Notes under the pieces: model-generated | Seen by the model: only the letters and a program-made list of their open reading frames with translations | What the model was told of the DNA's origin: nothing | Databases searched by the model: none | Program-made: the position numbers and the translations under genes | In this document: positions 4,871-51,679 of the stretch, piece after piece | Position numbering within the stretch: position 1 is the first letter of the stretch | Layout of the letters: every line of letters begins with the position of its first letter | NCBI GenBank assembly: GCA_032718475.1 | Contig: JAUCBJ010009149.1 | Span: 62,001 to 126,000 of the forward strand | Direction of reading: 5' to 3' | DNA length: 64,000 bases | DNA from: Nemertoderma westbladi | Taxonomy: Eukaryota > Animalia > Xenacoelomorpha

Positions 4871-4871
4871 T

Positions 4872-8138: not shown

Positions 8139-8144
8139 TATTAC

Positions 8145-8528: not shown

Positions 8529-8568
8529 TGTTGCAACATTATTGAAAATTGTTACAAAATATTAATTA

Positions 8569-9915: not shown

Positions 9916-10083
9916 TTTCCAAATTTTAAAGTAAATTGAAAATAATTACCGCAATACACAACAACAACAACAACAAACAAAACAGTTATACTGTATATAC
10001 AAATACTACTACAATTTTCGATTATTTAAAAATAGTAAAATTTTATATATAATCATAAAATATTTATAATATAGAGGGAAAAG

Positions 10084-13669: not shown

Positions 13670-16600
13670 TGTAAAAGCTTTTGCGTCATTAACCGGTTAT
13701 TTTCCCTTAAAGTACTCTGTAGTTGGTTTGCCAGGCATAAAAAGGCCGTGTCCTTGCTGTACTGGTGTTTTAGAGGACATAAAAGTCATTTCTTCTGTAT
13801 TTGAACTGTATTTGTACTTTAGAGGACATAATCTGCAATTTCATGATGTAAAAGGCTCGCTACTCTTGAAAACAGTGTCGCTACCATGACGACGGCTAAC
13901 GGCTGATATTGCCACGTTGCAGCTTTCCGTATCGGCCAATAGAATTTGAGTGGGCGTTGATTTCGACCTATCCTGAGCTACTGAACTGAAATTTTCCTAT
14001 CTCACTGCTCATCCTCTGTGTTGAACGGGAGCTTCGTGGAATAAGTGTAGTTGGTATTCTCGTAATCACGAGTTTTTCAAAGCCACGAAAGAACGGCTTT
14101 ATAGTGTTTTGTGCTTTTCTGCTTTTTAGCTCAACACTAGTAGGTTTAATTATAAGGACATATATCCTTTAACTGTAAAACTCATCTAACAACACTCTGT
14201 GAATATCACTCTGCAAACACTGAAACATTGCAAACTCATAACAATCAGTGTTCAGTTGTTGTTTTATACTGCTATTTGCTGTCGGTTATTCATTATATTT
14301 GTGGATGAATTATTATATTTGGAATAACGAGAAACAACCCCGAAACCCAATATTCTTGATATACCGAAGGTAAGAGAGAAAGGTTACAGATAAACGATTG
14401 TGACTTATGTTAAAGTGGTTTGAAGTGAATCTAATGTTATTTGATAGACCCTACATGAGTCAGCCTGTGTTCCTTTTATATGTGACTAAAATCAGTGAAG
14501 ATCGGCAGATTAGTGTGCAGTATTGTGCAGCATTGTGTATGCGTGAGTCTGTTAAAGAAGCATTTCCTAAAGAATGCGCCATATATGTCAATTATAACTA
14601 AACCATTTCGTTGTGAGTAGTTTAAGTCATAACTCTGTTTCTATAGATAGAGCGCCACGTCCTAAAGGAACTGTTAATATTCCCCGAAGGTGAATAATAT
14701 TGTCAGAGATTATATAATACTGTCAGTCGAATAATACATTAGGCTTACATAGCAATAAGATTAAACCGTCGAACACAATCTCCCGGGTATAACCAGCGGG
14801 TGAATGATCGCGCACGGATTGGTTTCGACTAGTGTAGTGAATCAAATATTTGTCATAGGCTAAAAAGCGATTTAATATCTAGAAGACATCATAATTTGGC
14901 GGGTTAAACTGCCAAAGGTCTGAAAGCGCGAACATTAAAGGATATATCTTCTTTATTGCAGTAAGCAATAAAGTTGAAAGTACCGGTCAACCGGTAAACC
15001 TGAAAGGTACATCTGTAGGTCAGTAGGCCCAATTGCAAGAACCGGTACTGCTGTAGGCCCGTAGGTCCAACTGCAAGAACCGGTACTTCTGTAGGTCCGT
15101 AGGCCTAACTGTCCTAACCGGTACTTCCCGTATAAGTACATTAGTATTATTCGATTTGATTGTTGTATACCGGTAGGCTGTTTAAGAGATTAGGGACTGT
15201 ACACCCCTTGTTTCTTTTGGAGCTTACTTATTTCTGTCAAGTTTTATTTGTTTGTAGGCCAGTATTGAACAGAAGACGTGTAAGCCTGATCAGATTGTAC
15301 AGACAATTTGTAGGCTGAGCTATTGTCTGATTGCTGTTAAGTCTGAACGGATTGCAGTGTGTGTAGAGCACCTGTCCGATTAAGTACGGTTAGGAAGTAG
15401 GGGCAGCGAATGCTGTAAGGTAAACCCCCCAGCTAAAGAATAAGTCGTACTACTGGGTTAGAACGCATACTCCCTAATCATTTCGGAGTCTGCATGTCCT
15501 GTGGTTTATTTAGGCTTGAGAGTAGTCTGCCATCGTTTAGTCTGTACTTTGTTTGTGTAAGTCTGTACGGGTAGCGTATAATATTATTTAGATAATTTGT
15601 AGGCTGGATAGTTGTCTGGCTGTTATTAGGTCTGAACGGATTGTAGTGTGTGTAGAGCACCTGTCCGATTGAGTACGGTTAGGAAGTAAGGGCAGCAAAC
15701 GCTGTAAGGTAAACCCCCAGCTAAAGAATAAGTCGTACTACTGGGTTAGAACGCATACTGCCTAATCATTTCGGAGTCTGCATATACCGTAGTTTGTTTA
15801 GGCTTGATAGTAGTCTGTCGGTATTTGGTCTGCATTTTGTTTGAGTAGTTTGTACGCGTAGCGTAATATTTATTATTCAGAGTTTATGCGATTATTCGCA
15901 ACATTCATATTCCCCAAGTTTGTTCCTACAGTAATTGTGTTTGTTATACATACCGTTATAGTTAAATTAACCCCGGTACTACACGGGCTGCTTGGCGTAG
16001 GTAAAGACTGGTGATTTTGTGCACCGGTTACTCCAGCAGATGCCGTGGTTCTTTTAGCTGTTCAAGTATATTTAACTACTGATTATCTGTTGTACAAGTA
16101 CTCGTACCTAATTTAGGGTTTAGTGTACAGTGCTTTCCGAAAGTAATTATTGTAGGCATTATATTTGTGTTGTAAAGTGGTTGATAGGCACCTTCGATTA
16201 GCTCTATTAACTTCTAGGTAGGAACACTCCGTGATACATAACGTAGAACCTATAGCGATACGGCTATAGGTCGTCAGGCGGTGGTATTTTCCTATCTAGA
16301 CAACGCAGTGTATTTACTACTACTTATTATTTTCAAATACCGTAGTACCCTGTCCGTTGTAATAACCAGATTTCTAACCCTTTGTTAGGCTGGTTTGTAG
16401 ACTTCTTGTAAAATTACCCTAAAAATTCGTATTTGTGTTTTTTGTAAATTTTTGTGTTTATTTAGAGATTGTAATCTCAACCCGAATTGTACGTAATTTG
16501 TAGTATTAAGTAACTTAGGTAAATTAGAATTATTTGTTTTAGTGTCATATAAGTAACACTTCACTGAAAGCGTACCGCTTTGTGCAGTGATTACCCCCCA

Positions 16601-17312: not shown

Positions 17313-18607
17313 AACAAAATACAGACCAAACGCTGGCAGACTACTATCAAGCCTAAATAAACTACAGTATATGCAGACTCCGAAATGGTTAGTTAGTATG
17401 CGTTCTAAACCGAGTAGTACGACTTATTCTTTAGGCGGGGATTTACCTTACAGCTCTGGCTGCCCCTACTTCCTAACCGTCACTTTATCGGACATACACT
17501 CTACATGCACTGCAATCCGTTCAGACCTAACAACAATCCGACAACAATCCAGCCTACGAATTATCTGTACAATCTGAGCAGGCTTACACGTCTTCTGCTC
17601 AATATTAACTTACAGGTAAATAAAACCGACAGAAATAAGTAAACTATACAAAGGAATGAGGGGTGATCAATCCCTAATCCCCTAGCAGCCTACAATATAC
17701 AATATCACAATCGAAATAGTACTGCTGTACCTGTACTGTTGTAAGTACCGGTTCCAGTGGTTAGGTAGTTAGGCCTACAGGTTACCGGTCGACCGGTACT
17801 TTAGCTTTATTGCTTACGCCGCAATAAAGAAGCAAACTGTTATTGTTCTTACCAGAACAATATTAAACTGTATTTATTGCTGTATTGCCTACACTGCAAT
17901 CAAGAATTTTACAAACTGTTATTGTTCGCGCTTTTAAGACCTTTGGCAGTTTAACCCACCAAATCTATATGTCTTCTAGGTTATAAATCTACTCCAGCCT
18001 ATGACAAATATTGAACACCTATAATAATTCTAACATTAGCCGAAGCCAGTCTGTGCGCGACCATTCACCCGCTGGATATACCCGGGAGACTGGATTCGGA
18101 TGCTTTAATTTGATTGCGGTGCAGGCCTACCGTACTATTCGATTGATCGTTAATATATAATCTCTGACAAATATTATTCACTTTCGGGAAATATTAGCAG
18201 TTCCTTTAGGACGTGGCGCTCTATCTATTTAAACAGAGCTATGACTTACACTATACACAACGGTATGTCTTATAGATCACCAAAGTGCATTCTTTAGGAA
18301 ATGCTTTGTTACTCGGTCAAGCACACACAGACTATTGCACACAACTGCACACTGAATTGCCGATATTCACTGATTTTAATCATATATAAAGAGAATAACA
18401 ACCGACATTTGTAGGGCCTATTAAGTAGCATTGAACTCATTACAAACCACGATAATGTATGTCGCAAATTGTTATATGTAACCGGTCTCTCTAACCTTAG
18501 TGTATCAAGAAGATTGGGGTTTCGGATCGTTATCAATATTCTTCCCAATAATAATATGTAAATGAACGATACAATTAACAACACAGTAAATAGCAGTAAA
18601 TAATGCT
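17313..18607 (-). mobile_element. BEL/Pao 5' leader plus truncated 5' LTR (17923-18607), probably the 5' end of copy D
   Basis: 17923-18607 is nearly identical to 43645-44328; 17313-17922 is reverse-complement leader; same orientation as the gag at 11519-13669. Confidence 0.85.
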
Positions 18608-23395: not shown

Positions 23396-23814
23396 GGTAG
23401 TGTAACACTGCGGAGTAATTCGGAAGTGTAACACTGCGGAGTAATTCGGGTAGTGTAACACTGCGGACTGCGGAGTAATTCGGGTAGTGTAACACTGCAG
23501 AGTAATTTGGGTAGTGTAACACTGCGGAGTAATTCGGGTAGTGTAACACTGCGGAGTAATTCGGGTAGTGTAACACTGCGGAGTAATTCGGGTAGTGTAA
23601 CACTGCGGAGTAATTCGGGTAGTGTAACACTGCGGAGTAATTCGGGTAGTGTAACACTGCGGAGTAATTCGGGTAGTGTAACACTGCGGAGTAATTCGGG
23701 TAGTGTAACACTGCGCGCTGCGGAGTAATTCGGAAGTGTAACACTGCGGAGTAATTCGGGTAGTGTAACACTACGGACTGCGGAGTAACTCGGGTAGTGT
23801 AACACTGCGGAGTA
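23396..23814. repeat. 27-bp minisatellite (GTAACACTGCGGAGTAATTCGGGTAGT), left segment, about 15 units
   Basis: Direct tandem repeats with occasional +7 (ctgcgga duplication) and shortened (cggaagtg) variants. Confidence 0.97.
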
Positions 23815-24998
23815 TGTAAAAGCTTTTGTGGGATAACTGATTCGTTTGCCTTGCTAACCAGTTCCCCCCCCGTCGCTAGAATACTCTAAAAAGGGATCTA
23901 TAACTCGAATAGCACAAGCTACCGGCTGATTGGCTGATTCGCTGTGCGAAGGGATCTGGGCTACGTTTGATTGTCCAGCTAGCTTGGGAAAGTATCTCCC
24001 AATAGAATTTGAGTTGATTTTGATTTCGACCTATCACAGATCTACTGAACTGAATTTTCCTATCTTTATGCTCTTTCTCTGTGTTGGGTGGAAGCCTTTG
24101 TAAATAAGGTTATTCTTATCAGTTTTCAGTGTTGTTGGTCTTTCTTTCCTAAGCCAGGAGAGAACGGCTTGTAAATATTTTGTGCTTTTCTGTTTTTAGT
24201 CTAACACTAGTAGGCTTAATTATAAAGGGCATATATCCGTTATCACTGGGTAACTCAATGTTATCACAACACTTAATATCAAACTAATGAACTTAACGCA
24301 CACTGAATTACTGTGCATACTTTTATATTGTTATACTGCTATTTACTGTCAGTTCTTCATAATATGGTTGATGAATTATTATATTTGGAATAACGATAAA
24401 TAACCCCGAAACCCAATATTCTTGATATACCGAAGGTAAGAGAGAAAGGTTACATATAACGATTGTGACTTATGTTAAAGTGGTTTGAAGTGAATCTAAT
24501 GTTATTTGATAGACCCTACATGAGTCAGTCCGTGTTCCTTTTATATATAACTAAAATCAGTGAAGATCGGCAGATCAGTGTGCAGTATTGTGCAGCATTG
24601 TGTATGAGTGATACTGATAACGAAGCATTTCCTAAAGAATGCGCCATATATGTGAATTATAACTAAGCCATATTGTTGTGAGTAGTTTAAGTCATAACTC
24701 TGTTTGTATAAATAGAGCGCCACGTCCTAAAGGAACTGTTAATATTCCCCGAAGGTGAATAATATTGTCAGAGATTATATAATACTGTCAGTCGAATAAT
24801 ACATTAGGCTTACATAGCAATAAGATTAAGCCGTCGAACCCAATCTCCCGGGTATATCCAGCGGGTGAATGATCGCGCACAGATTGGTTTCGACTAGTGT
24901 AGTGAATAAAATACTTGTCATAGACTAAAAGTGATTTGTTATCTAGAAGACATCATAATTTGGCGGGTTAAACTGCCAAAGGTCTAAAAGCGCGAACA
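23815..24998 (+). repeat. 5' LTR of copy A (1184 bp)
   Basis: Differs from the 3' LTR by about 5 substitutions and 1 indel by eye; TATAAA at 24221, AATAAA at 24905. Confidence 0.97.
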
Positions 24999-25009
24999 AT
25001 AACGGATAT
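24999..25009 (+). promoter_or_regulatory. Non-tRNA primer-binding site of copy A (ATAACGGATAT)
   Basis: Directly follows the LTR end; exact reverse complement of 24233-24243; repeated at 25068-25079. Confidence 0.8.
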
Positions 25010-25429
25010 TTAGTCTGTATTGCAGTGTAGGCATTAAATACAGTTTAATATTGTTCTGGTAAGAACAATAACGGATATAGCTTTATTGCAGTAAGCAATA
25101 AAGTTGAAAGTACCGGTCAACCGGTAAACCTGAACGGTCAATCTGTAGGTCAGTAGGCCCAACTGCCAGAACCGGTACTGCCGTAGGTCCGTAGGTCCAA
25201 CTGCCAGAATCGGTACTTCAGTAGGTTGGTAGGCCTAACTGTCCTAACCGGTACATCCCGTATAAGTACATTAGTATTATTCGATTTGATTATATATGCC
25301 GGTAGGTCTTAATAATTAATCGGGGACGCCTGGTTTTTATTGGGATTTTACTTAGGCCTATTTCTGTCAGTTTTATTTATTTGTAGGCCAGTATTGAGCA
25401 GAAGGCGTGTAAGCCTGATCAGATTGAGC

Positions 25430-25975
25430 AGACAATTTGTAGGTTGAACTGTTGTCTGATTGCTGTTAGGTCTGAACGGATTACAGTGTGTGTAGAGCCT
25501 GTCCGATAAAGAACTGTTAGGAAGTAGGGGCAGCGAATGCTGTAAGGTAAACCCCCAACTAAAGAATAAGTCGTACTACTGGGTTAGAACGCATACTACC
25601 TAATTATTTCGGAGTCTGCATGTCCTGTAGTTTATTTAGGCTTGAGAGTAGTCTGCCATCGTTGAGTCTGTACTTTGTTTGTGTAAGTCTGTACGGGTAG
25701 CGTATAATATTTATTTAGATAATTTGTAGGCTGGATAGTTGTCTGGCTGTTATTAGGTCTGAACGGATTGCCGCGTGTGTAGATCACTTGTCCGATAAAG
25801 AACGGTTAGGAAGTAGGGGCAGCGAATGCTGTAAGGTAAACCCCCGACTAAAGAATAAGTCGTACTACTGGGTTAGAACGCATACTACCTAATTATTTCG
25901 GAGTCTGCATATACCGTAGTTTGTTTAGGCTTGATAGTAGTCTGTCAGTGTTCGGTCTGCATTTTGTTTGAGTAG
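25430..25975 (+). repeat. Tandem duplication (about 290 bp x2) in the retrotransposon leader
   Basis: aatttgtagg...gcagcgaatgctgtaaggtaaacccc...ggagtctgca occurs twice; also twice in copy E (about 15305-15845). Confidence 0.9.
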
Positions 25976-27321
25976 TTTGTACGCGTAGCGTAATATTTAT
26001 TATTCAGAGTTTATGCGATTATTCGCAACATTCATTCCCCAAGTTTGTTCCTACAGTAATTGTGTTTGTTATACATACCGCTATAGTTAAATTAACCCCG
26101 GTACTACACGGGCTGCTTGGCGTAGGTAAAGACTGGTGATTTTGTGCATCGGTCACTCCAGCAGATGCCGTGGTTCTTTTAGCTGTTCAAGTATATTTAA
26201 CTACAGATTATATGTTATACAAGTACTCGTACCTAATTTAGGGTTTAGTGTACAGTGCTTTCCGAAAGTAATTAGTGTAGGCATTATATTTGTGTTGTAA
26301 AGTGGTTGATAGGCACGTTCGATTAGCTCTATTAACTTCTAGGTAGGAACACTCCGTGATACATAACGTAGTACCTGTAGCGATACGGCTATAGGTCGTC
26401 AGGCGGTGGTATTTTCCTATCTGGACAACGCAGTGTATTTACTACTACTTATTATTTCAAATACCGTAGTACCCTGTCCGTTGTAATAACCAGATTTCTA
26501 ACCCTTTGTTAGGCTGGTTAGTAGACTTCTTGTAAAATTACCCTAAAAAATTAGTATTTTGTGTTTTTTGTAAATTTTTGTGTTTATTTAGAGATTGTAA
26601 TCTCACCCGAATTGTACGTAATTTGTAGTATTAAGTAACTTAGGTAAATTAGAATTATTTGTTTTAGTGTCCTATAAGTAACACTTCACTGAAAGCGCAC
26701 CGCTTTGTGTAGTGATTACTCCCCAGAAATAATAACATTTATTTCAAACATTGACAAAACCCATTAAAACGGGTATATATATATTATAAATCAAATCTAA
26801 CGATTTATAAATAGTAGGCCTACCATACAACCATTAGGTCTCAATATCAGTTGGATTACTGCTCAAATAACGGTAGTAAAGTAAGTAAAGTAACCAAGTA
26901 ACCCTAAAATACAGAAATTCAATTATTTAAAATAATTGATATACCGGTATTTACGATAGGCCTATTATCTTTATTTCTATAAATTTAGGCTGAAATTATA
27001 CCGGTACTTATAATTAATTCTAGTCCAGAATTATATATACTACAAACTGTAAGCTGTATACCGGTATTCCCGATAGGCCTATTATATATTTATATATATT
27101 TGTGCTAAAATTATACCGGTATTCTGTGATAAACCTAGTCTGTAATAATACTTATATAGTTATATATACTATAAGCATACCGGTATTCTAATATATTATA
27201 TATATCACGCTACACTGAGTGGCAGTACCGGTAATTAATTACTAGGCTAGCAGTTAATACTGAGTTACTAGACTTGCTCAGACTGTAATACAGCAGTAGA
27301 CATTCAACTGTATACATAAAC

Positions 27322-30300
27322 ATGTCTGATACTAAGCAGAACCTGTCAGACAGTTTATTAGATGTAACTATCTGCGACTCAGATAGAGGCGTAGAACCGT
27401 CTAGTCGTAAGTTCAGTTCACCTCCCACTGTGAGGAAAGTCATCCCTCCAGTAGTAATAAAAGAACCTAGGCTGGTCCAACATCGTAGGTCTATCATAGG
27501 CACTCGAGCTCAGGTCAAACGGGACCAAGAAGCAGCGGAACAGCAACAACCCGCGAGCCAAGAACTTATTTCTCAGCGGCCCGACAGCTCCAGTAGTGAA
27601 GATACGGTAGAACTGACACCCGAACACGGAGCAAGGATGACGGATGAGGCTTATTCAGATCCCCTTCTCATCCTTCCTGCAGCCGTACTCACTAGGTTAT
27701 TGATCGCTGTGGAAGAACACCAGATCGATTGGGCGAAAAGCCAGCGTTCAACTAGAGATAGTTATGCTGGATACACAAGGGAAGAACTGAAGTCCATGGT
27801 CGAGTCGCAATGGAACTTCCCCGGACCCGGACTCCCGTTTGATTTATCCGAAGCTGCCTGGGAAGACATAAACCGGATGGGAGTAGCCAAAGAAACCATC
27901 GATCCAGCTGTGTGGAAGAGGTCCGCAGCCGGATACGCACAGGGATTCTTCAGCTCTATGGAGCGAGTAGAAAAACAACTTTTACAACAACCTCAAGGAC
28001 CTCAAGAGCAGGGACAGCTGCTTTATCAAGTAAGAGAAAGAATTCTACGAATCAGGTTAATATTATCGGCCTTTGAGGAGGCTTCTAAACGAAGACAAGA
28101 CACGTCGTTGCAAGTCGCCGTAAAGACTTGGTTTCAAAGGGTGAATCTCCAGGTTCAAGGAACATCTCAGTGGAAAGCTCAGCTGGAGGAGCGATCGGCC
28201 CATGGGGAATCAACAGACGCTACTTTTTCCCAAGTGGAAAGTGAAGCGACGGCAGAGAAGCCGCATAAGAGGGATGCCATTGACATCTATCTGTCGGACT
28301 ATCAACGTTTTTTAGGTGATGACGAATTGAGGAGAAGGTTAGATGGACTTAGCCCTAATAGCGAAGGAACCAAGCTTGTGTTGGATGCCATCGATGTGGA
28401 AATGAGGGCTGCGAACCAGGCTAAATTCGATGAACAACTCCGCATCGTTAGAGAACAAGAAGAACAAGTAAGGAAAAAACGTATAGAAGACAGAAAGGCA
28501 GCAGCAAAAGCAGAGGCAGAAGCAAAAGCGGCAGCGGCAGAGGCAAAAGCGGCAGCGGTGGCGGAAGCAGAACGGAGAGCGGCTGAAGAGATCGCCCAAC
28601 TGGAGTTGGAAAATCTTCAAGAGAAGCAAGACGACTTCAGTAAACAGTTAACAGTTAGTAATATGCAGATGATGAATCGATCTACTCCCAAAAGACAGGG
28701 ATATACATCATCTGAAGAAGGCGATACCACCGATACTGAAGGCAAAGGAAATAGATCTCGTCTAAGCAGACGTAAAAGAACATTCCAAATTGCCTGATTT
28801 GCCTCCAGCTGTTAGAAGGCAACTAAATAACACCAACTTAGGTAGTACAGAGCCCACAGACCAAATAATTAAAATAGAAAGACTCCCTACTATAGTAGAT
28901 GAGCCTGAAATAATTAGGCCTGTTCTTGAAATCACCCCTTCGGTGATAGACACACCTGTGCTCCCTGAAGCCACCTCTAAATTCCCTCTACATAGCACTA
29001 AGCTACCTGTGCCCAGTAGAACTGCCCAGGAGACAGTTCAGGTCCTGGACCCCGAGCGAAATATTCATAATTTGTCGCCCGTTGTCCCTCGTCCGCCCGC
29101 TACAACGTTGGCGACTCCCGCTTCGGCGGTCGAATGGGTGGACGAGAGACGGCGGGGGATGGATATCCTGCTCGGGCAGATGCAGGAGACTGTCCAGCAA
29201 TTCAAGGGCACAGTAAGGGAAAGTAGGCTAGAGTTGCAAGAAGTGCAGCAAAGTATCGCGCTAGAACGAGATAAATTAGTAAATACGCAAAAGGGTATAC
29301 CACCACCCTCTGTAACAATGTGTCAACCTGTTAGGTCTGAAGTATCTCATGTGCAAGGTGTGGAGCCTACACGCATATATACTGCTAGCGAAGCAGAAAC
29401 TCCTATAGTAAACCCTATTAAGGGTAATTATAGACCTGTTGATAATGACATTCCATATAGAACTGATCATAATCCGAGAAATTTATATACCGATAACTCG
29501 ATATTAAATAACACGATGGCCCAAGAAAGTTTTACGCGTCAAATGGCTAGAACCGAAGCCCCCGGCAAGCGGTAAAGGTGGGAGAGATCGTCAAATTCAA
29601 TGGAGATGAGATGAAATGGTTACCTTTTAATGAATATTACAAAGATAACATACAGAATTCTGTACTATCTAATGGAGAAAAACTTAGATACCTCATCGAG
29701 TGCTTGGAAGGATCTCCCAAGTTAATGGCGTTAAAGTTTATTGGACATCCAGACGGATTAAGACAAGTTTGGGATACACTAAACATCAGGTATGGTAATA
29801 GGAATAATATCGCTGGGTACTTGTATGCAAAATTAGTAGCGCCCCGAAAGTTTATTAGTAGCGGGATTATCGAGTTTTCCGATGAGATCCAGGAGATCTG
29901 CAGATAATTAGATTGGCTAGGTAAGTCTCATGAGTATCAGAACACTATGGTTATTAGAGCAGGGGCTTCTACTTTACCGAAAGGTGGAGTAGGTACACGC
30001 TGGGATAAGAAAGTGTTATATATGATGGAACAACAACGACGAGACCCTACCATGGCTGATCTCATGTCATTCCTAGATGGAGAAGTGAAATTACAGCTCC
30101 TGAAACTGTCTAGGGAGAAGACACCGGAAAACAAGGTAAGTGAAAAACCCGTTTCTAGGAGAAAGGTAACACCACTGTGTTATACAGACGACGGCGAAAG
30201 CCAGACTTCTCAAGGAGAAGATAGCGGGAAAGACACTGATCGATCTTATTACGTAAATAAAATTCCTAAAGATCAGGTGAGTAAATTCAAGTCTCGATCA

Positions 30301-30684
30301 AATGACAGGAGAGAACAGGTAAGAAAAACTCCTCCTACGTCTCCCAAGAGAATTCCGGTGAGAAAGCCCGAAGAAAGGGCAAGCGTACACAATGTGACTC
30401 AAAATAAGGTAAGTAACATCAAACCGAAATGTGCGCTGTGTGACGGGACCCACCGTTTGAATATGTGTGATGAATTCCTGAAGAAGTCATTAACGGAGAG
30501 ACGCGAAGTCATGTGGGATAAGCGGTTATGTTATAATTGCCTCAGACAAGGACACCAACGGCGTACCTGTTTCTCTGACATAAGGTGTGCAAAGTGTGGT
30601 GCGAAACATCATATCTTGTTGCACGCTGAATTCGATCGAAATAGTCCGAATCAGGTAAGTGATTCCGAGCTACATGTCAACTAA
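27322..30684 (+). pseudogene. gag: BEL/Pao gag with long N-terminal extension; frameshifts near 28785 and 29560, stop at 29905
   Basis: Four ORF-track pieces are contiguous in sister copies (RTSHRQKWPDLPP; ARQAVKVGE; CRQLDW); DUF1759-like region and three CCHC knuckles. Confidence 0.9.
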
Positions 30685-33314
30685 AACAGCGAGATAATCC
30701 AGTTCGAACCAAACGGATTTGCTTAAGTATACTGAGCACTTATTTCGATCCATTGGGATTTATTAGCCCAGTTATATTGATTGCTCGTAGTTTGGTACAA
30801 CAAATGTGGCTTGAAAACCACTCATGGGACGATCCACTTAAGGGGGAATTATTGAAGCAGTGGATGAAATGGGAAGATTCTCTGCCAGCTATCGAGGATT
30901 TTATAATTTCCCGTTCATATTTTGGTCATGTTCTCCCTACGTATTCCTATCAACTCCATGTGTTTGGAGACGCCAGCGATATGGGAATAGGTATAGTAGC
31001 CTATCTAAGAGTGGAAACTCCGGATGGAATCAAAGTCGCCCTGGTTACTTCTAAGGCATTAATCAACAACAAGTTGAAAGTTCCTCGAGCGGAGTTAAAA
31101 GCGGCTCTATACGCTACAGCCATCGGCCGGAATGTAACCGAACAGATTGACTATCCATTAGAGAAAACTGTCTATTGGACCGACGCTTTACTCGTGTTAG
31201 AGTATATAACCAATGAAGTCTGTCAGTTCAGCGTCTTTGTTACCAACAGGGTAGCCATCATACTTAGTCGCACGACGATGGACCAATGGAGACATTGCCC
31301 CGGAACTATTAATCCAGCAGACATCGCGTCCCGAGGAGCGACTCCAAAGGAATTGGTAAATACTCCCGAATGGTTAGGAGGACCCGACTTTCTCTACAGG
31401 GAAGAAGAAGAATGGCCTCCTCATCTCACAACAGCAGAGATCAGACAGGCCAAGGGAGCGGAGAAAGTTAAACCCAAAACTCGAGCGAGTAAATCGAAGT
31501 TGTTTAAACCTGCGGTTGATCTATCTGTATTATTTACTTCCGGAGGGGATGCTTTGGATCAGAAACCCACCGCCACGACTAAAGAAGTCTTGGAAATCCG
31601 TGACAAGGATTGGAAATCTGGAATACCAGATATTTCGCAAGGACTCTCACCTCTCTTGCAGAGAGCGATACGTCACTACAGTTCCTGGAATCGGCTCTGT
31701 AAAGCTGTCACCTATCTGAAACGATGTTTTCATCATCGTTACTCCGGGACAAAGACCAATAGTGATGATGCTCCATCAACATCTGCACGAGTCCATGTTG
31801 TTAAAGACCTTCCCCAATACAAGATATCCGACAGGTTTCTAAAGGAGAAGATCAGTTACCAGGAGCATGATGAAACCAACAAACAGATGCTGAGACTTCT
31901 ACAATGTTATGAGGATTCCGATAAGTATTTCCTGTTGTTAAGAAATCCGCAGATGCGCTTAAGGGATCGCTTCTCTAGTACCATGATAGATGGGTTAATA
32001 CGTGTTGGAGGCAGGCTTACCAACGCCCCATTATCCTTTGACACTAAGTTCCCCATACTCATTAGAAATCTTGACATACAAATCAAGATAATTGTAGATG
32101 TTCATAGCAAACTGTACCATGCTGGTAGAGAACGAGTTCTGAGCGAAATTCGAACTCGCTACTATTTTTATAAACCCCGTAGGGCTCTGAACCAAGTTCT
32201 TAGGAACTGCATACCCTGTAGGAAAGCATTCAGTAGGCCTTTAACACAGCGAGAGGCAGAATTACCTAGGGAAAGAGTAAGCTTCTATGAACCACCCTTT
32301 ACTAATACCGGTGTGGATTTATTTGGCCCTATTGAAGTATATCGTGCCCGGACTATAGTCAAGAGATGGTGTGTCATCTTCGTTTGTATGACTTGTAGAG
32401 CTATCCATCTCGATATGGTAAACGATCTATCCACCAACAGCTTCGTGTTGAGTTTACGACGACAGATTGCTCGCTTCGGAACCAGTAACACGATGAGATC
32501 GGATAAGGGAACGAACTTCATTGGCGCCAACAACGAAATTCAAGCTTACGTAAAGGACTGGAACAAAAGACAGGTGGACGATCAGCTAAGGATAACAGCG
32601 TCTAGCTGGACCTTCAACGCCGCCGACGCCCCTTGGTGGGGAGGAAGTTGGGAGAGATTGATTAGGAGCGTGAAGACTGCATTCCACTTTATTGTGCCTT
32701 GTCGCGCTTATCTCACCGACGAACTATTGCGGACGTTAATGGAGGAAATCGCCGCCTATCTCAACGAAAGACCGCTTATGCCAGTCTCTTCAAATCCTGA
32801 TTCCCTGGAAGCGCTAACACCCGCGCACTTTCTACTGAAGAAACCCGTAGCCATGCTCCCACGATCGGAGATCACAGACGGAGACGAGTACTGCCGTCGA
32901 ACCTGGCAACTTATGCAGTTGCTATCCCGTCGTTTCGCTGACCATTTCGAGAAACATTACCTGCCCACTCTACAACTTCGAACTAAGTGGTTTGCGCAGC
33001 AAGAAAACGTCAGCGCTGGAGACATGGTGCTTATTGTGGACCCCGATCTCCCACGTAAGCGATGGCAAACAGGACGTATCATCGAGACGCATATCTCGAG
33101 CGATGGTTTGGTGCGATCAGTAGAGCTCGTCGTCATGCGGCGGAACTTTAAGAAACCAGGGATAGTCTTTGAGACTCAACAGCTCAATCGCCCAGTGGGA
33201 TGTTTATGTTTACTGGAAAGAGACAGAGAGCTCTCCGGAAACTATGGAAGGCAAGAAACTCTTCCCACGACCACTTCCCTAATCCAACCGACATCTAGGG
33301 ACTCCCCAACTTGA
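30680..33314 (+). CDS. pol: BEL/Pao pol remnant: RNase H (Pao A17 region) plus integrase
   Basis: TKR..LS..STYFDPLG, LHVFGDAS, PRAEL.A, WTDA, NPADIASRG, HHCC zinc finger, GVDLFGP, SDKGTNF, GGSWERLIRSVK, DGLVRSV. Confidence 0.93.
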
Positions 33315-34981
33315 TATCGTTCGGAGTGGGCGTGTGACTCTATTATTTTATATTATTTTATTATTTTTATATTTATGTATGTATTACTATGTAATTTTAT
33401 TATAATCGTTTTATTTAATTTAGTAGAATATTATTTAGCGATTATTTTGTAGAATAGTGCAATATATTCGTGTTTATTACGTACGTAATTACTTATATTA
33501 TATTTAGTGAGACGGCGAAGAAATAATTATTTTTTCTCTTTCCTTACTGTCCGTATTATATTATAAATACGTAACTACAGTAAGATGAAATGTCCGTACT
33601 TACTAAAGTACAATAAAGCCACTACTATATTTAAGTATTATTGGTAGGCAGAGTATTAGGAATGCAAAGTTCAGATCCTCGTGTCTCGGCTAAACCAAGC
33701 TCTGGGTAGACCTTGGAAACGACTTGCCTCTTCACACTGACATTGCTTCGTGCGATATTGCTCTCATACCGTATATTAAATAATACATATAGTAGCGTGA
33801 TGTCCCTTTAACAGTAGCGTATAATGCAAAATAAATCTGTTAAACCCTTTGACCATCTGTAATTCTAGTCGATTAAGATATCGCGGCACCCACCGATATA
33901 CTTGAAAGACAAATTCTAGAATCAGTGGTTAACGTCCCCAGACAAGTTCTGGAATAAATCGGTGCCCATCTCAAATATTAATTATTTAATATTTGCAAAT
34001 CTAATAAATCAAAATCTGTAAAATTCAGATCCTGGTTCCAGATTCAGATCCAGATTCTGGTCAATTAAGATATCGTAGCATTTACCGATATTCTTAAAAA
34101 AGACAATTGTCATAGAATTAAGGATCTTGTGTCCCTAGACATGTTCTAGAATCAAAATATGTCCATTTAATTATCAAATAATAAAATTTCAGGGAATAAA
34201 TTTAAATTCATGCCTTTTAATGAATTTAATAAATTGCCATTTTTACGCAATTTATAACATTCCCAAAATTCCATTAATTAATAGATCAAGGGAGCGGAGA
34301 TTTATCTTATTATGCATATGAGTGTGCGAAAGTCTCCCAAACATAGTCAATAGCCGATAAAATTCATAAAGTCATGTATAAAACAGGACATTGACTATTA
34401 AAGAATTACTATTAAATAACATCCCAGATCTGTATGCATTGGAATTACCCTAATTCTACCGCTAGCTTTGCATAATGTCACCATAGCAACAACCACGCTA
34501 GAATTAGAATTGAGTTAAAAGAACAATAGAAAGCTTGTCCCATTGAATAGCATAGGGAATAAATAGCGCACTACTAGTATCCAAGGATACATAATAATAC
34601 AGTGACATTCTGGAAGGCATTGACTAACGGACAAATGGCCCGAATGTGCGTAGTTGTGACCAGTTGTGTGGTATTTGTGAGTTTATAGGTGAATGTTACT
34701 GCTAAAGTGTGTTTACAGTAGCTAGTCGCAATCGTAAAAGTAACCTAACTCTCCAAGGAATACCTGAAGTACATCTAAGCCTTTGGGACGGACAGTTGAG
34801 TGACTTGTGCCGGTTATCGTTGTCGTTGTACGGCTACGTCGTTGGCGAAAGTATAGCGACAGCGGTACATCGGCGCTGAGAATCTCATACTGTCCGGGGG
34901 CAAGGGAGAAATAGGCAGCGACGCCCGCTCGCCTAACGATATATAAACTCATTATAATATTGGTGAACTCGTATAGCAGAT

Positions 34982-37900
34982 ATGACTGAATTAATAGAAG
35001 ATGATCTTGGTATCAGGGAGAGATATACTCTACCTTTACAAGCGTTTGTCGATAGCTTGATACGCGGCGACGCTGATCCAACTACTACGGAGGACGATGG
35101 TCGTTATATCGAACCGCCAATGTCCCAGGAGCAACTTACGCGTGAATTGGACTATAGAAAGTTCACGGCTCGCTATACGCATCGTAATGGTATGTATATG
35201 GACTTCTTGACCACTGGTCATCCTATTGATTTACACGATACGGACGATGTAGACACCGAAAGGGAAATGGTTTTATTTAAATATCATACCCAGCGGAGTC
35301 GAAACGATAAATCGAGAATAGAACACGAGAACTCTATTCGAAACAAACTCGAAAGAGAAGACGTTGAAGAACCTGATAAACGTAACGGTTTCAACGATTA
35401 TCTAGAATTCTTAAGAGAGACCTATCTCAATGTTGCCAGTCAACAAAACCTCGAAACTCGATATCCTCAAGGTATACATCCAGATCCTATGATGGAACTC
35501 AAACGGCTCTATTTTACGATGATGTATCTTACTGCTGATCGACCGCTACCTGTCGTTCCAGATAGCTTCGAACAGATGGAGGAATATTGTAAAACTGGAG
35601 AGCGATCACCCGCGTTTCCTCTTCAAGACGTGCGTCTTTGGTATTACTGTGACGAATGCCCTAGACCTAACCAGCAAATCGAAAGGCATAAACATCCTCG
35701 GAGACGTTGCGCTAAACACAGTTTTACGCGATATACTTATGGGAGTTTCGAGCGTAACCTTTTCGACGTATCACCTACGGTCGCGCGCCTTAAGCGATCA
35801 GTGAATAAACCCATGATCAGAGTTCCGGAATACTCGGTCAGACCTCCCCATTCCCAAGTGATACCTCAAACTCTAGATCCTAATAGTATTACGGATCCTC
35901 CCGAACTGTACTCACTGTTCAAAGATCTGGTGTTACCTGAACAGTTGATTGGTGGCACTCCGGTAGTGGGTTCGTTGGATATTCGCCAACCTTACCTCGC
36001 TGGACTAGGACGCGGTCATCTAATATCACCGTTTAACCCCTACAACCGTCCTGGCCTTCCTCCGATCCAACCTGTTACAGAAGTCGAAGAGAGCGTGATA
36101 CGAAATGCATTAGACGCTATTCGGCAGAAAATCGGGAAAGGAACTTACGATTGCTTGGAGAAACGTAAATTGCAACAACAAGTCCAAGCGGTGAAAGAAC
36201 TAGCTTTACCCCAGTTCGATAGAGAAATACAAAATCTAGAGGAGGACATCGAACGTGGACGAACCTACTCTTTACAGGAATTCCTGGACGAGCGCTTGCA
36301 ACAACAAGCGGAGGAAAATCAGCTCGAGGAGAGACATATAGAGCTGACTGAGAGGGAAGAAGCAGCTTTAGCCCAACCAGAAGCTCAAATTCTCGTGACG
36401 GATCTCTATTCCAAAACGATTCTCCACCCCTCGATGGTTCCTCATTTTAAAGACAAGCTCTTTGCTACGGTACAGCCTCAACCGGTTAACACCGATCTCA
36501 GATCTCAAGAGCTCGTTGCTGACGCTCCCATGCTACAACGTCCACCCGTCGAGGCTGCTCGTGTCGATGGCGTACTTGTTGAGCCTCCGGACATTAGAGC
36601 GGATCTTGTCCGTCGCATGGTGCACGATGTTAACATACGCGCTAGACCTTTGCCGGACTCATTTTATGGAATTAAGGATCATCCTTATTACGTCAATTTA
36701 AAGCAATATTACATGGTGAAACCAGAAGATCCTACGCATAGTCTGAAGTTTCTACCATTGATCAATCCTCTCGACCTCGTTGAACTCGAACAACTACAAA
36801 AACATCTAGATCAGCTAGTTAAACTAAACTCATTTCGAAAACCGTATAATATTTCCAGAATAGAGAAAGAAATATCACCCCCGTACAATCTTGATGGATT
36901 CATTAAAACTCGATTGGTACACTGGAATCTTGACGTATTATTCGAGGAAGAAAGAATAAAACGATATGGAGATGTGGAAACCTATACTACACAATGCTTA
37001 AAGTATAGAGATTTACCCAATGCTAGCGAATGCGCTACTTTGTGGCATCCAGTGGGAATGACTCTCGAAAACGCCACTAAAGAATGGAACGAGACTCTTA
37101 ATGTTATCGAGATGTATGGCGTTGTTACTTATGACAACGAAGGTAGCGTTCCGGTGGGAGAACTAGGAACTACGCGAATGATACATATACGGGGACTCGC
37201 TGGTTCTACCCACGTATTCACTCGAGCGTGTTCCGACGTGATCGATTATTCTTTTGAAACCCTTACGGAGACACAAAAGAAACTTCGACATGGACAATTC
37301 GAGCTCGCGCAACGTTACGTCACTGACACCGAGCGCAAACCGGCCATGGGTATCGACGGATCAATGTTACCCCAACCCGTGCTCGAAATGTTGTTTAACG
37401 AAAGAATCCTAAAAATCGGCTCAGCTGTTTATGGAGATCTCCAAAACGACTTCCGGAATATGGAAAACATTCCATACCCTTTCGTTGATACTCAGCTGAT
37501 TGCTCCTTGGGCCGAGGTTTCTTTCACACTATGTATGCCAATACACCCAGCGACATTACTAAAGTACAACGGACATCCATCGGACATCTTGCCTTTCAAG
37601 AATATGGATGGAACTTCAAAGTTGGAAATCCTATCAATTACCAGCAGGTATATGGAGATCATTACTCCCGTTTATATTTTGACGGACCATTAACTGCGCC
37701 TGGTGCAGTATATAGCTTTATGAGTGTTCCACTTCGCCCTTCCTTAGCTATATACACGATCTTTGAAAACGCAGCACTTGCCGGTTGGCTAGCCGATGTG
37801 TGCAGTCGTACCATACGCGCTCACCCGTTAATACTTGGAACTAAACTCGCCAAGTTAGACGAACACAATAAGTTCATACGTTTCGAATGTTTCCGGCGCT

Positions 37901-39213
37901 TTCTGACTCCGTTCCGTAACGTCGATAGTCAGTTCAAGGACCGCGCGCTGACCAAGCTCAGTCTTAGAGACTCAGCTGCGGAGAAACTGAGTAGCGCTGG
38001 ATTTGCCGTCTTTCAAGACGTTTGTATACAGAACCTACATTCATCCGTTATACAAAGACCCCGAATATCTACAGGTTATTCTGTCGTGGAAATACAGACA
38101 GTGGGTCCACTTACGGAAACCGACACACCCACTTCGTCTATGCAGCTGGAGGATGAACCAGTATGCTTGGAATCAGAAGCGATTCAACCTACGGCTTCCC
38201 GGAGCAGTGACAATGATTATGTCATAGAGTGGTATCAAGGTCCACAGCGTCTCACAGCGTATGATTATCGACACGCTAACTACGTTTCCCGAAAACGTTG
38301 TCGATTATGCGCATCGAGAGACCACTTCACTCCTCTAGACTCGAGCGTACCTTGTTCCTATTTCCTCGAACAACCGATGATGGAAATATATTGTGCTTAT
38401 TGCCGGCTTAATAACTCTCATATATTTGCCGTCTGCCCACAATTTATGACTCAATGTCACTACTGTCAACTTAAAGGACATGAAAGTTACAATTGTCCCT
38501 TTAATCGCGATTTAGAAAGCGTAGACAAGATGATCACCCTGCGATACATCCGAGCTTGGGAAGCGAACGCCGATTTACATTGCGAATCCCGACATCGCTA
38601 TTACCCTGGACGAGCTTACGAGGGAGTTTACGCGTTCCATCCTTATCTATTCGCATCAATTGAACAGAAAACACGCGTACCAAGTTACGAGTTAATGAAG
38701 CGTGTTGGTGAGTGTATTTCCACCAAGTTTTGATTTTAAGCCCCTAATGATATAACCACATATCACCTGATCAATTTTATCCGTCAGGACCCTGAGTATG
38801 GCGACATCTTTGTGAACTCGCATCCTGAACTACAGGAAATATCTCGGCGACCATATGAATATCGAACCCGAGAACGCGAGCTGGAGAGAACCATTAAACC
38901 GAGAAAGTTCCTCACCACTCACGGTCCACCCACCGCTAGTGTCCAGACGACCCGTCAAGGACCCATAGGAGCTGCTGTCTTGAGACGCGCTCTAAAGGCC
39001 GTTAGACCTCACTCCACTGAGGTTGATATTAATCAACCAGGTACTTCGACCGGCGGGTATACCGATCGTAACCCTGCACCTTCTGATGCAATTATATTGC
39101 ACCCTTCGCCTAGGAGCTACAGCCCTCCTCGTAAAGTGGCTCGCCCCAAAGAGAAAATGACTCTTGCTAGCTTTAAAAAACTGCGTAAACGCCGTCCGCG
39201 CAAGAAAGACTAA
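34982..39213 (+). CDS. Extra 3' gene, predicted join(34982..37532,37565..38707,38741..39213), 1388 aa: unknown N-terminus, WRN/Mut-7-like DEDDy 3'-5' exonuclease, three CCHC-type knuckles, basic tail
   Basis: VVTYDNEG (ExoI), LPQPVLEMLFNERILKIGSAVYGDL (ExoII), FVDTQ, SIGHLA..YG and PL...AIYTIFE (ExoIII-like); CxxC..H..C clusters; two GT-AG introns of 32 and 33 nt restore a single frame. Confidence 0.72.
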
Positions 39214-39291
39214 CTGTTTAGAGTATTTATGTATATTAGAAATTGTGATTTTGTATATTTTATAGACTTAAATCCCATTTTCTGGGAGCGG

Positions 39292-40476
39292 TGTAAAAGC
39301 TTTTATGGGATAACTGATTCGTTTGCCTTGCTAACCAGTTCCCCCCCCCGTCGCTAGAATACTCTAAAAAGGAATCTATAACTCGAATAGCACAAGCTAC
39401 CGGCTGATTGGCTGATTCGCTGTGCGAAGGGATCTGGGCTACGTTTGATTGTCCAGCTAGCTTGGGAAAGTATCTCCCAATAGAAGTTGAGTTGATTTTG
39501 ATTTCGACCTATCACAGATCTACTGAACTGAATTTTCCTATCTTTATGCTCTTTCTCTGTGTTGGGTGGAAGCCTTTGTAAATAAGGTTATTCTTATCAG
39601 TTTTCAGTGTTGTTGGTCTTTCTTTCCTAAGCCAGGAGAGAACGGCTTGTAAATATTTTGTGCTTTTCTGTTTTTAGTCTAACACTAGTAGGCTTAATTA
39701 TAAAGGGCATATATCCGTTATCACTGGGTAACTCAATGTTATCACAACACTTAATATCAAACTAATGAACTTAACGCACACTGAATTACTGTGCATACTT
39801 TTATATTGTTATACTGCTATTTACTGTCAGTTCTTCATAATATGGTTGATGAATTATTATATTTGGAATAACGATAAATAACCCCGAAACCCAATATTCT
39901 TGATATACCGAAGGTAAGAGAGAAAGGTTACATATAACGATTGTGACTTATGTTAAAGTGGTTTGAAGTGAATCTAATGTTATGTGATAGACCCTACATG
40001 AGTCAGTCCGTGTTCCTTTTATATATAACTAAAATCAGTGAAGATCGGCAGATCAGTGTGCAGTATTGTGCAGCATTGTGTATGAGTGATACTGATAACG
40101 AAGCATTTCCTAAAGAATGCGCCATATATGTGAATTATAACTAAGCCATATCGTTGTGAGTAGTTTAAGTCATAACTCTGTTTGTATAAATAGAGCGCCA
40201 CGTCCTAAAGGAACTGTTAATATTCCCCGAAGGTGAATAATATTGTCAGAGATTATATAATACTGTCAGTCGAATAATACATTAGGCTTACATAGCAATA
40301 AGATTAAGCCGTCGAACCCAATCTCCCGGGTATATCCAGCGGGTGAATGATCGCGCACAGATTGGTTTCGACTAGTGTAGTGAATAAAATACTTGTCATA
40401 GACTAAAAGTGATTTGTTATCTAGAAGACATCATAATTTGGCGGGTTAAACTGCCAAAGGTCTAAAAGCGCGAACA
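39292..40476 (+). repeat. 3' LTR of copy A (1185 bp)
   Basis: Preceded by PPT GGGAGCGG, followed by TSD GAGTA. Confidence 0.97.
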
Positions 40477-43644: not shown

Positions 43645-44963
43645 TGTTCGCGCTTTTAAGACCTTGGGCAGTTTAACCCGCCAAATCTATATGTCTTCTA
43701 GGTTATAAATCTACTCCAGCCTATGACAAATATTGAACACCTATAATAATTCTAACATTAGCCGAAGCCAGTCTGTGCGCGACCATTCACCCGCTGGATA
43801 TACCCGGGAGACTGGATTCGGATGCTTTAATTTGATTGCGGTGCAGGTCTACCGTACTATTCGATTGATCGTTAATATATAATCTCTGACAAATATTATT
43901 CACTTTCGGGAAATATTAGCAGTTCCTTTAGGACGTGGCGCTCTATCTATTTAAACAGAGCTATGACTTACACTATACACAACGGTATGTCTTATAGATC
44001 ACCAAAGTGCATTCTTTAGGAAATGCTTTGTTACTCGGTCAAGCACACACAGACTATTGCACACAACTGCACACTGAATTGCCGATATTCACTGATTTTA
44101 ATCATATATAAAGAGAATAACAACCGACATTTGTAGGGCCTATTAAGTAGCATTGAACTCATTACAAACCACGATAATGTATGTCGCAAATTGTTATATG
44201 TAACCGGTCTCTCTAACCTTAGTGTATCAAGAAGATTGGGGTTTCGGATCGTTATCAATATTCTTCCCAATAATAATATGTAAACGAACGATACAATTAA
44301 CAACACAGTAAATAGCAGTAAATAATGCGGCGAAAAGCAGTTTACGTCAGGGTGCTTAATCAGGTGCCTGACAAGCAAGATAACAGTTTGATGATCTTAT
44401 AATTAAAGACGCTCTAATGTTAGAAAACATTCCACGGCCGGTGTTCTAGGCGTGGGGGAAACGTCAGTACTGAATCCTGTGATTCTGCTGTACAGCTTTT
44501 ACACAAAGAGGAGATCTCTCATTGGTCGAACTGGCTGAGCCGAACAAAGAACCAAATCTCCTGGCAAAAAGCTCCACGTGGACACAGCTGATAGATGTCG
44601 TCATTTGAGCTGAGCAGAACAAAGAACCAAAGCTCCGGGCAGAAAGCTCCACGTGTACAGCTCAGCTGTTAGCTGTCGTCATAGTAACTACACTGTTTCA
44701 AGAGTATTTCAGCTTTTGCGTCATAGAATTGCTAATTATGTCCGCTAAAGTACACATACAGAATGAATGGCCCTCCATGTCCACTAAAACACCGGTACAG
44801 TAAGGAAACGGCTTTTATGTCCGTTAAAACACCTACAGAGTACTTTACGGGAAACATAACCAGCTAATTCCGCAAAAGCTTTTACACCGCTCCCAGAAAA
44901 TGGGATTTAATTATATAAAATATAAAAAATCACAGTTTCTAAAATATAAAAATACTCTAAACA

Positions 44964-50800: not shown

Positions 50801-51679
50801 GAGCACAGGTGTCTCTATCACCGAAGGAGTGATTTCAAGAACAGGCCTAATTATTTCAGGCTCATCTACTATAGTAGGGAGTCTTTCTATTTTAATTATT
50901 TAGTCTGTGGGTTCTGTACTACCTAAGCCTGCGCTAGTTAGTTGTCTTTTAACAGCTGGGGGCAAATCAGGCCATTTCTGACGGTGAGATGTTCTTCTAC
51001 GTCTGCTTAGACGAGATCTATTTCCTCCGCCTTCAGCATCGGTGGTATCGCCTTCCTCAGATGATGTATAACCTTGTCTTTTGGGAGTAGATCGATTCAT
51101 CATCTGCATATTACTAGCTGTTAACTGTTTACTGAAGTTGTCTTGCTTCTCTTGAAGATTTTCCAACTCTAGTTGGGTTGTCTCTTCAGATGCCCTCCGT
51201 TCTGCTTCTGCCACTGCTCTTTTTCTTTCCGCTTCGGCCGCTGCAGCTGCCGCTTTTGCCTCTGCCGCTGCCGCTTTTCTTTCCGCTTCTACTGCTGCAG
51301 CTGCCGCTTTTGCCTCTGCCGCTGCCGCTTTTCTATCCGCTTCTGCCGCTGCCACTGCCGCTGCTGCTGTCTTTCTATCTTCTATACGTTTTTTCTTTAC
51401 TTGTTCTTCTTGGACTCTAGTGATGCGGAGGAGTTCATCAAATTTAGCTTGGTTCGCAGCTAACATTTCCGCATCGATTGCGTCCAGCACAAGCTTGGTT
51501 CCTTCACTATTAGGGCTAAGCCCCTCCAGCCTTCTCCTCAACTCTTCATCTCCTACAAAGCGTTGATAGTCTGACAGATAGATGTCAATAGCATCCCTCT
51601 TATGCGGTTTCTCTGCTGTCGCTTCGCTCTCGGTTGTATCTAGTAGACTGTCTGACAGGTTCTGCTTTGCGTCGGACAT
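47864..51679 (-). pseudogene. gag: gag-protease of copy B with one stop (50900) and in-frame deletions removing RT, most of RNase H and integrase
   Basis: Gag knuckles and aspartyl protease ALLDSGS, then jumps to DQWRHCP..ADIASRG and to QLNRP..RLCLLE. Confidence 0.9.

What the first reader, a model, noticed from the sequence alone, without database searches (positions are those of the whole stretch)
24221..25009. Self-priming BEL/Pao retrotransposon: primer-binding site complementary to its own LTR, co-varying in three variants
Seen: no TGG tRNA-type site follows the LTR. Copy A: ATAACGGATAT (24999-25009) pairs with ATATCCGTTAT (24233-24243). Copy E: TTAAAGGATATAT (14935-14947) pairs with ATATATCCTTTAA (14160-14172). 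B/D variant (minus strand): ATAACAGTTTG (17922-17912) pairs with CAAACTGTTAT (44390-44380; taken from the near-identical copy B LTR because D is truncated). The motif always sits in TTAATTATAA..CAT-[11-mer]-C, and pairing starts at the first base after the LTR. Known: Tf1/sushi-group Ty3/gypsy elements prime from the first 11 nt of their own RNA, while BEL/Pao elements are described as tRNA-primed. Inference: tRNA-independent self-priming in BEL/Pao, which I do not know to be described. Open point: the motif is only about 12 nt from TATAA, so it is either the transcript 5' end or supplied by the 3' LTR part of the RNA.
Basis: partly seen in the sequence, partly recalled or inferred. Interest (0 to 1): 0.92.

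Follow-up and report, generated by a model that had tools for sequence, protein, structure and literature searches.

The report
Self-primed BEL/Pao retrotransposon, twin primer sites
A family of animal jumping genes lacks the usual tRNA landing site and instead carries 11-13 letters that pair exactly with a stretch of its own terminal repeat, changing in step in three variants, so it likely starts copying itself with a piece cut from its own RNA, a route shown for yeast Tf1 but not found in print for this group.

Summary
Observation confirmed. The element is BEL/Pao. No TGG site follows the LTR; the first 11-13 nt pair perfectly with a motif in the same variant's LTR only (other variants 5-6 nt; shuffles 2-4 of 5000). 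New here: A and D carry a second copy of the site 69-79 nt downstream that tracks the same changes; 55 of 55 cells are Watson-Crick and 6 of 11 pairs change on both sides. Predicted duplexes flank the first site as in the Tf1 'pretzel'. In 9 of 9 relative families with independently fixed LTR ends the site is also self-complementary (0 of 132 swapped pairs), in 6 across a splice junction inside the LTR; one TGG-type relative shows none. Best reading: Tf1-like self-priming from the 5' end (0.7); own-RNA priming in some form about 0.9. Not shown: transcription start, cleavage, priming; no RNA holder listed; RT is deleted in all window copies. Not found in print in 8 searches; this scan noted the same, including the spliced form, on other genomes.

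The parts
23815..24998 (+). Element A, 5' LTR (1184 nt, TG..CA)
   Evidence: 99.5% to 3' LTR
24216..24232 (+). Conserved block TTAATTATAA..CAT directly before the motif; A of CAT (24231) is the proposed transcript start (inferred)
24233..24243 (+). A: putative self-primer motif
   Evidence: family conservation ends at 24242-24244 in four runs
24808..24830 (+). A: LTR arm of predicted duplex 3 (pairs 25010-25032)
24873..24878 (+). A: LTR arm of predicted duplex 2 (pairs 24990-24995)
   Evidence: same letters in E and D
24999..25009 (+). A: primer-binding site 1, no spacer after the LTR
25010..25032 (+). A: leader arm of predicted duplex 3
25049..25070 (+). A: predicted 9-bp hairpin ending in a second GAACA, an LTR-end look-alike; same in D
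25068..25079 (+). A: primer-binding site 2 (12 nt complementary to 24232-24243)
27289..30684 (+). A: gag-region ORFs; protease and RT absent after them
30663..33314 (+). A: RNase H - integrase ORF (Peptidase_A17, Integrase_H2C2, DUF5641)
34967..39213 (+). A: extra ORFs of unknown kind before the 3' LTR
   Evidence: (no Pfam)
39284..39291 (+). A: polypurine tract
39292..40476 (+). A: 3' LTR, motif copy at 39711-39721, followed by target duplication GAGTA
13670..14934 (+). Element E, 5' LTR (1265 nt)
14160..14172 (+). E: putative self-primer, 13 nt from the A of CAT
14935..14947 (+). E: single primer-binding site, followed by site-2-type leader
17923..18606 (-). Element D, 3' part of 5' LTR (motif part missing)
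17912..17922 (-). D: primer-binding site 1
17833..17843 (-). D: primer-binding site 2
43645..44886 (-). Element B, 3' LTR (1242 nt)
44380..44390 (-). B: putative self-primer motif matching the D sites
47864..51685 (-). B: gag-protease ORFs (DUF1759), RT absent

Best explanation
[quoted passage not shown] Shown: the complementarity, its covariation, the second site, the lack of TGG. Predicted by folding: two duplexes that hold site 1 open as an internal loop. Inferred: transcript start near 24231, cleavage, priming, and re-copying of the site from the primer during plus-strand synthesis, which would explain why all changes are strict Watson-Crick. RT must come in trans, since no window copy has it.
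For: 55 of 55 cells Watson-Crick, 6 of 11 pairs with two-sided change, no G-U. Cognate 11-13 nt against 5-6 nt non-cognate; shuffles 2-4 of 5000. The helix forms across about 770 nt in whole-region folds (E 0.96; A site 2 0.88). With site 1 held unpaired, A and D fold duplexes on both sides of it; the best partner of the 3' leader in the LTR is the homologous segment in all 5 leaders (A1 -23.4, 1 of 60 shuffles as good; D1 -27.1, 0 of 60), the layout described for Tf1 (PMC10085805, passages). Family conservation drops sharply after the motif's 3' end (depth 60825 to 5154 in X1 between 24243 and 24248). Relatives: 9 of 9 families at 10-15 nt, 0 of 132 swapped and 8 of 2700 pseudo-leaders at 10 or more; blind scan 8 of 11 families against 4 of 176 swapped, and the one TGG-type element scores 6. 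A canonical poly(A) hexamer lies downstream of the motif in 7 of 9 relatives and in A, E and B, none just upstream. Tf1 cuts between bases 11 and 12 (PMC7175516, passage) and copies its primer into cDNA ends (PMC11042837, passages).
Against: No transcript start is known. TATAA lies only 9-10 nt before the proposed start; read as a normal TATA box it would put the start just downstream of the motif (established spacing about 30 nt, recalled). In spliced relatives a start at the paired bases implies first exons of only 4-11 nt. Duplex 3 is weakly specific: the A leader pairs the D LTR as well (-24.5) as its own (-23.1); E, A2 and D2 are not clearly above shuffles (3, 3, 16 of 60) and in E a local hairpin wins. 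The plain fold puts the A motif on site 2, not site 1 (pseudoknots are excluded). The D-B link is inferred. Only three variants, from one window. The window element is on a long branch outside the clade of self-complementary relatives, so their evidence transfers by analogy. RT of this family was not seen.
Confidence: 0.7

Rival explanations
1. Own-RNA priming, but the primer comes from another molecule or from the 3' LTR copy: transcription starts about 30 nt after TATAA, the motif is in U3, and a co-packaged RNA or a short LTR transcript is cut to give the primer in trans.
For: TATAA sits 9-10 nt before CAT and is in the conserved block. Covariation and the spliced relatives fit this equally.
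Against: The start would fall in the stretch that is unalignable between A, E, B and between run contigs. Cutting U3 would break the template, so a second RNA must be spent (inference). E pairs exactly up to the A of CAT.
Confidence: 0.15
2. The motif is the RNA's 3' end: TTAATTATAA is the poly(A) signal and the unadenylated 3' end primes directly (lead from note e1-7468529).
For: A weak signal variant could be read in the block (variant list recalled); conservation ends right after the motif.
Against: No AATAAA or ATTAAA lies just upstream of the motif; canonical hexamers are 94 (A), 175 (E), 187 and 458 (B) nt from the LTR end and 12-128 nt downstream of the motif in 7 of 9 relatives.
Confidence: 0.06
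3. The pairing is a structural or regulatory helix (packaging, dimer, translation switch) and the true primer is a host tRNA fragment or another host RNA.
For: Belpaoviridae are described as tRNA-primed; half-tRNA priming exists in copia lineages. Host tRNAs could not be compared.
Against: No TGG in the first 9 nt of 11 of 12 leaders, the 12th (L068) being self-complementary too; one host RNA cannot fit three variants differing at 6 of 11 positions; the helix would occupy the very site a primer needs; the TGG-type relative has no such helix.
Confidence: 0.07
4. Chance, local duplication or assembly artefact.
For: An 11-nt match to a 1.2 kb LTR arises about once in 1000 tries.
Against: Three variants, five sites, one homologous position, strict covariation; motif context and site-2 collapse seen in contigs of independent runs.
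Confidence: 0.02

Closest known systems
Tf1/Tf2/Tj1 and the Tf1/sushi group (Ty3/gypsy chromoviruses), self-primed reverse transcription
   Same: 11-nt site next to the 5' LTR complementary to the element's own LTR; predicted three-duplex 'pretzel' layout; the A and D sites even begin with ATAAC, as the Tf1 site does.
   Different: BEL/Pao proteins, no chromovirus; LTR about 1.2 kb with the motif about 750-775 nt from its end; two tandem sites that co-vary; start site and cleavage not shown here.
Ty1/copia TAR lineage (Houba, Osr-1) and Tcn1, self-priming predicted from sequence (PMC6317226)
   Same: Same criterion met: at least 10 nt starting 0-5 nt after the LTR complementary to the LTR.
   Different: Other superfamilies, plants and fungi.
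Belpaoviridae (BEL/Pao, Semotivirus), e.g. Achilles with an 18-nt tRNA-Tyr site (PMC4580426)
   Same: DUF1759, Peptidase_A17, DUF5641; integrase after RNase H; TG..CA LTRs; 5-bp target duplication; extra ORF before the 3' LTR.
   Different: No tRNA-type site; element 16.7 kb against 4.2-10 kb in the ICTV profile; long branch, 33% identity to best hits.

Membership tests
BEL/Pao (Belpaoviridae) | Pao-type gag, RNase H and integrase domains in gypsy-like order | tested here: met
   DUF1759, Peptidase_A17, Integrase_H2C2, DUF5641; 57 of 58 hits carry PF05380
BEL/Pao (Belpaoviridae) | RT phylogeny | not testable with these tools
   no RT segment in the window by tblastn with 3 relatives; tree made on RNase H-integrase only
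BEL/Pao (Belpaoviridae) | LTRs TG..CA, polypurine tract, target duplication | tested here: met
BEL/Pao (Belpaoviridae) | 18-nt site complementary to a tRNA 3' end (ICTV description; descriptive, not the basis of the taxon) | tested here: not met
   no TGG in any of the three leaders; ICTV text
Named BEL/Pao lineage (Sinbad, Suzu, Tas, Pao, BEL, Flow, Dan) | clusters with reference elements | not testable with these tools
   no named reference sequences were available; window element is a long branch
Tf1-type self-priming mechanism | 10-13 nt after the LTR complementary to own LTR | tested here: met
Tf1-type self-priming mechanism | two flanking duplexes between site-adjacent sequence and LTR downstream of the primer | tested here: inconclusive
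   predicted in A and D for site 1, weak in E; little covariation
Tf1-type self-priming mechanism | primer is the 5' end of the transcript | not testable with these tools
   only contigs, no raw RNA reads
Tf1-type self-priming mechanism | RNase H cleavage releases the primer | not testable with these tools
   needs biochemistry
Tf1/sushi group (membership) | Ty3/gypsy chromovirus pol with chromodomain | tested here: not met
   Pfam gives BEL/Pao domains and no chromodomain

The most novel reading that the evidence does not exclude
A large part of BEL/Pao diversity in aquatic invertebrates does not use tRNA at all: it self-primes, and in many families host splicing of a cap-proximal intron inside the LTR builds the primer; because the spliced piece is consumed as primer and the LTR is re-copied from the unspliced 3' copy, the intron survives retrotransposition. 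The window family is a deep, intron-free branch with two alternating primer sites, both rewritten from the primer.
Probability: 0.55. Interest if true: 0.85.

Novelty: new variant of a known kind. Interest (0 to 1): 0.72.

Why it matters
It would correct the standard description of a whole family of reverse-transcribing elements (ICTV: primed by host tRNA), add a third superfamily in which self-priming exists, and tie retrotransposition to transcription-start choice and, in relatives, to splicing, which gives hosts a control point other than tRNA fragments. It also explains why tRNA-based annotation finds no primer site in many such elements. The three natural variants make a ready specificity test.

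Tried and rejected
No whole genome is held, so host tRNAs and further linked copies could not be examined. Sequencing runs: no RNA holder listed; X4 is only guessed to be RNA and is contigs. Pattern scans for the LTR end found 0 stretches in viral and metagenome contigs; the protein scan of viral contigs gave 0 relatives of 41 matches. The second read-laying was meant to list motif variants that match site variants, table 5c; it listed no letter table, so that out-of-sample test failed to run. The first blind scan over all 80 loci was too noisy (many 8-11 nt hits at wrong places, no null) and is used only for leads. MAFFT did not align the B motif with A and E; the register rests on the shared block. 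Splicing does not lengthen the pairing in A, E or B. ARAGORN found 0 tRNA genes in the window. The protein atlas did not answer for the extra ORF. Two primary Tf1 papers (PMC1563812, PMC109269) are not held; Tf1 facts come from passages of later papers. Literature searches listed no paper on self-priming in BEL/Pao; subscription journals, Repbase Reports and GyDB pages were not searched, and a recalled report of a self-encoded tRNA-like primer in nematode Cer7 could not be checked.

Full report
Observation. Element A spans 23815-40476 with LTRs of 1184 and 1185 nt, 99.5% identical, and a GAGTA target duplication in a 27-bp satellite. E has a whole 5' LTR and leader; D has only the 3' 684 nt of its LTR, 99.4% identical to the 3' LTR of B, which supplies the motif. 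The first 11 (A), 13 (E) and 11 (D) bases after the LTR pair perfectly with one homologous position of the cognate LTR; the 10 other leader-LTR combinations reach 5-6 nt, D's own truncated LTR included. Shuffled LTRs reach the observed lengths in 4, 2 and 4 of 5000.

A and D carry a tandem second site, preceded by GAACA like the LTR end (25068-25079; 17843-17833). Over five sites and 11 core pairs, 55 of 55 cells are Watson-Crick; pairs 1, 5, 6, 8, 10 and 11 change on both sides, with no G-U and no mismatch. Such strictness fits a site that is copied from the primer rather than only selected for pairing (inference); Tf1 cDNA retains a copy of its primer at the 3' end (PMC11042837, passages). 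E has one site with the LTR on its left and the site-2 leader on its right; a contig in run X3 skips the same 69 nt.

Identity. Pfam gives DUF1759, Peptidase_A17, Integrase_H2C2 and DUF5641; 57 of 58 homologues carry the A17 domain, the best at 33% identity. No RT segment is found in the window with three relatives as queries: A lacks protease and RT, B lacks RT, so these copies depend on an enzyme in trans. Contigs of four public runs show a high-copy family. In them the block 24204-24243 is shared and agreement ends at 24242-24244, with unlike loose ends in all four runs. No raw RNA reads were available.

Structure. Folding from the A of CAT, the motif pairs with the site across about 770 nt (E mean probability 0.96; A with site 2, 0.88). 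Site 1 of A scores 0 there because it lies inside another helix and the program excludes pseudoknots. With site 1 held unpaired, A and D fold a 6-bp helix on its 5' side (24873-24878 with 24990-24995, same letters in A, E, D) and a long duplex on its 3' side (24808-24830 with 25010-25032; -23.4 kcal/mol, 1 of 60 shuffled leaders as good; D -27.1, 0 of 60). That is the three-duplex layout described for Tf1 (PMC10085805, passages). Against it: E, A2 and D2 are not clearly above shuffles (3, 3, 16 of 60), E prefers a local hairpin, and the A leader pairs the D LTR as well as its own.

Relatives. A profile search of metagenome contigs returned the best 80 of 572 confirmed loci, 60 families at 80% identity. 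Twelve loci had a repeat whose two copies diverge at its 3' end; I dropped L049 (same family as L038), L050 (repeat does not end in CA) and L070 (repeat in coding sequence), leaving 9 families. All 9 have 10-15 nt, starting 0-4 nt after the LTR, complementary to their own LTR: 3 contiguous, 6 longer or only across a GT..AG junction inside the LTR (unspliced 6, 10, 11, 7, 6, 5; spliced 11, 14, 15, 13, 11, 10). None of 132 swapped pairs and 8 of 2700 pseudo-leaders reach 10. Two choices were made after seeing the data: the GTTCGT donor of L068, and the 5' LTR copy of L005, whose 3' copy has a changed motif. A blind scan on the 14 loci where an LTR-to-gag stretch could be set automatically gave 10 nt or more in 10 of 14 loci (8 of 11 families) against 4 of 176 swapped; misses were L009 (LTR ends in TA), L032 (wrong stretch), L050 and L054, the last having a TGG-type site. 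Further cases have LTR ends inferred from the match itself and are leads only. On an RNase H-integrase tree of 73 sequences and 743 columns, the 22 self-complementary relatives fall in one clade (support 0.997) with spliced and contiguous forms mixed; L054 groups with insect proteins; the window element is a long branch between them. There is no outgroup, so one origin or two cannot be told. I found the spliced form, before the look-up that showed earlier notes of this scan on other genomes; those notes are not independent support.

Which end of the RNA. A canonical poly(A) hexamer lies 12-128 nt downstream of the motif in 7 of 9 relatives and far downstream in A, E and B, which argues against the motif being the RNA's 3' end. 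E pairs exactly up to the A of CAT, and conservation stops where the primer would be cut. An intron whose spliced junction is the primer can persist if that piece is spent as primer and the LTR is re-copied from the 3' copy (inference), as in the Tf1 scheme (PMC5341516, figure legend; PMC7175516, passage). Against: TATAA is only 9-10 nt before the proposed start, and first exons would be very short in relatives. A primer supplied in trans remains open.

Literature. The ICTV profile says Belpaoviridae have an 18-nt site for tRNA-Arg or tRNA-Gly (PMC8742986, whole text); Achilles has a tRNA-Tyr site (PMC4580426, passages). Self-priming is reported for Tf1/sushi, Tcn1 and copia TAR, Houba and Osr-1 (PMC6317226, passages). 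The main BEL/Pao survey has no occurrence of 'primer', 'PBS' or 'tRNA' (PMC3118150, term search), the Sinbad paper none of 'tRNA' or 'priming' (PMC554778). Passages of PMC13524379, PMC6934838, PMC3601003, PMC3286476 and PMC8220671 added nothing on BEL/Pao priming. Eight searches listed no report of it; no supplements were read, and closed journals and Repbase were out of reach.

Verdict. A real, strongly non-random feature. It works like Tf1 on every sequence-level test that could be run but is not a Tf1/sushi member. Own-RNA priming about 0.9, the 5' Tf1-like version 0.7. New variant of a known kind; interest 0.72.

Noticed in passing
L001, L016, L019, L026, L032/L080, L035/L066, L038/L049, L044, L045, L052, L068, L069/L071/L077 (LTR regions): The site after the LTR is complementary to an exon-exon junction of a GT..AG intron (66-426 nt) inside the LTR, 10-15 nt. 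In L032 the 5' copy lacks the 117-nt intron exactly (may be an assembly mix of copies)..
   Followed up: yes
window 24999-25079 and 17922-17833: Both primer sites carry the variant's own letters although the duplication predates the A/D split (spacers 82% alike over 120 nt). A contig joint that skips the 69-nt unit is seen in X3. How site 2 is kept in step is unexplained.
   Followed up: partly
window 24244-24330, 14173-14260, 44379-44328: The 60-95 nt right after the motif are unalignable between variants and between run contigs, while both sides are conserved; this is where strong-stop DNA would end.
   Followed up: partly
window 23396-23814 and 40477-43647: A and B are both inserted in the same 27-bp satellite array (115 and 15 copies), tail to tail; possible target preference.
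   Followed up: no
window 34967-39213: Extra ORFs (908, 414, 157 aa) between integrase and 3' LTR with no Pfam match; the second ends in CCHC-like knuckles. Not obviously an envelope gene.
   Followed up: partly
window 1955-9945 (-): Polinton/Maverick-like gene block: rve integrase, adenovirus-type protease (below cut-off), weak P-loop ATPase; family name recalled. 386-bp tandem repeats at 653-1495.
   Followed up: no
window 55893-59218: A second, shorter BEL/Pao family (DUF5641, LTR about 450 nt, same GGGAGCGG tract); its 5' LTR end and primer site are deleted, so it could not be tested.
   Followed up: partly
window 24436-24512: A 77-nt GT..AG intron-like stretch inside the LTR, similar in E and D; no matching joint among the 15 joints listed (1 not shown).
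   Followed up: partly
L054:145-165: A relative with a classical TGG-type site (tRNA-Tyr type, assignment recalled) and no self-complement; groups with the insect proteins.
   Followed up: yes
window 14155-14161; L032, L080, L038 LTRs: GGACA(C/T) directly precedes the paired bases in E, in common run contigs and in two distant relative families; a possible initiator.
   Followed up: no
window about 23297-23210 (-): tRNA-like SINE head seen by eye; ARAGORN does not call it.
   Followed up: no
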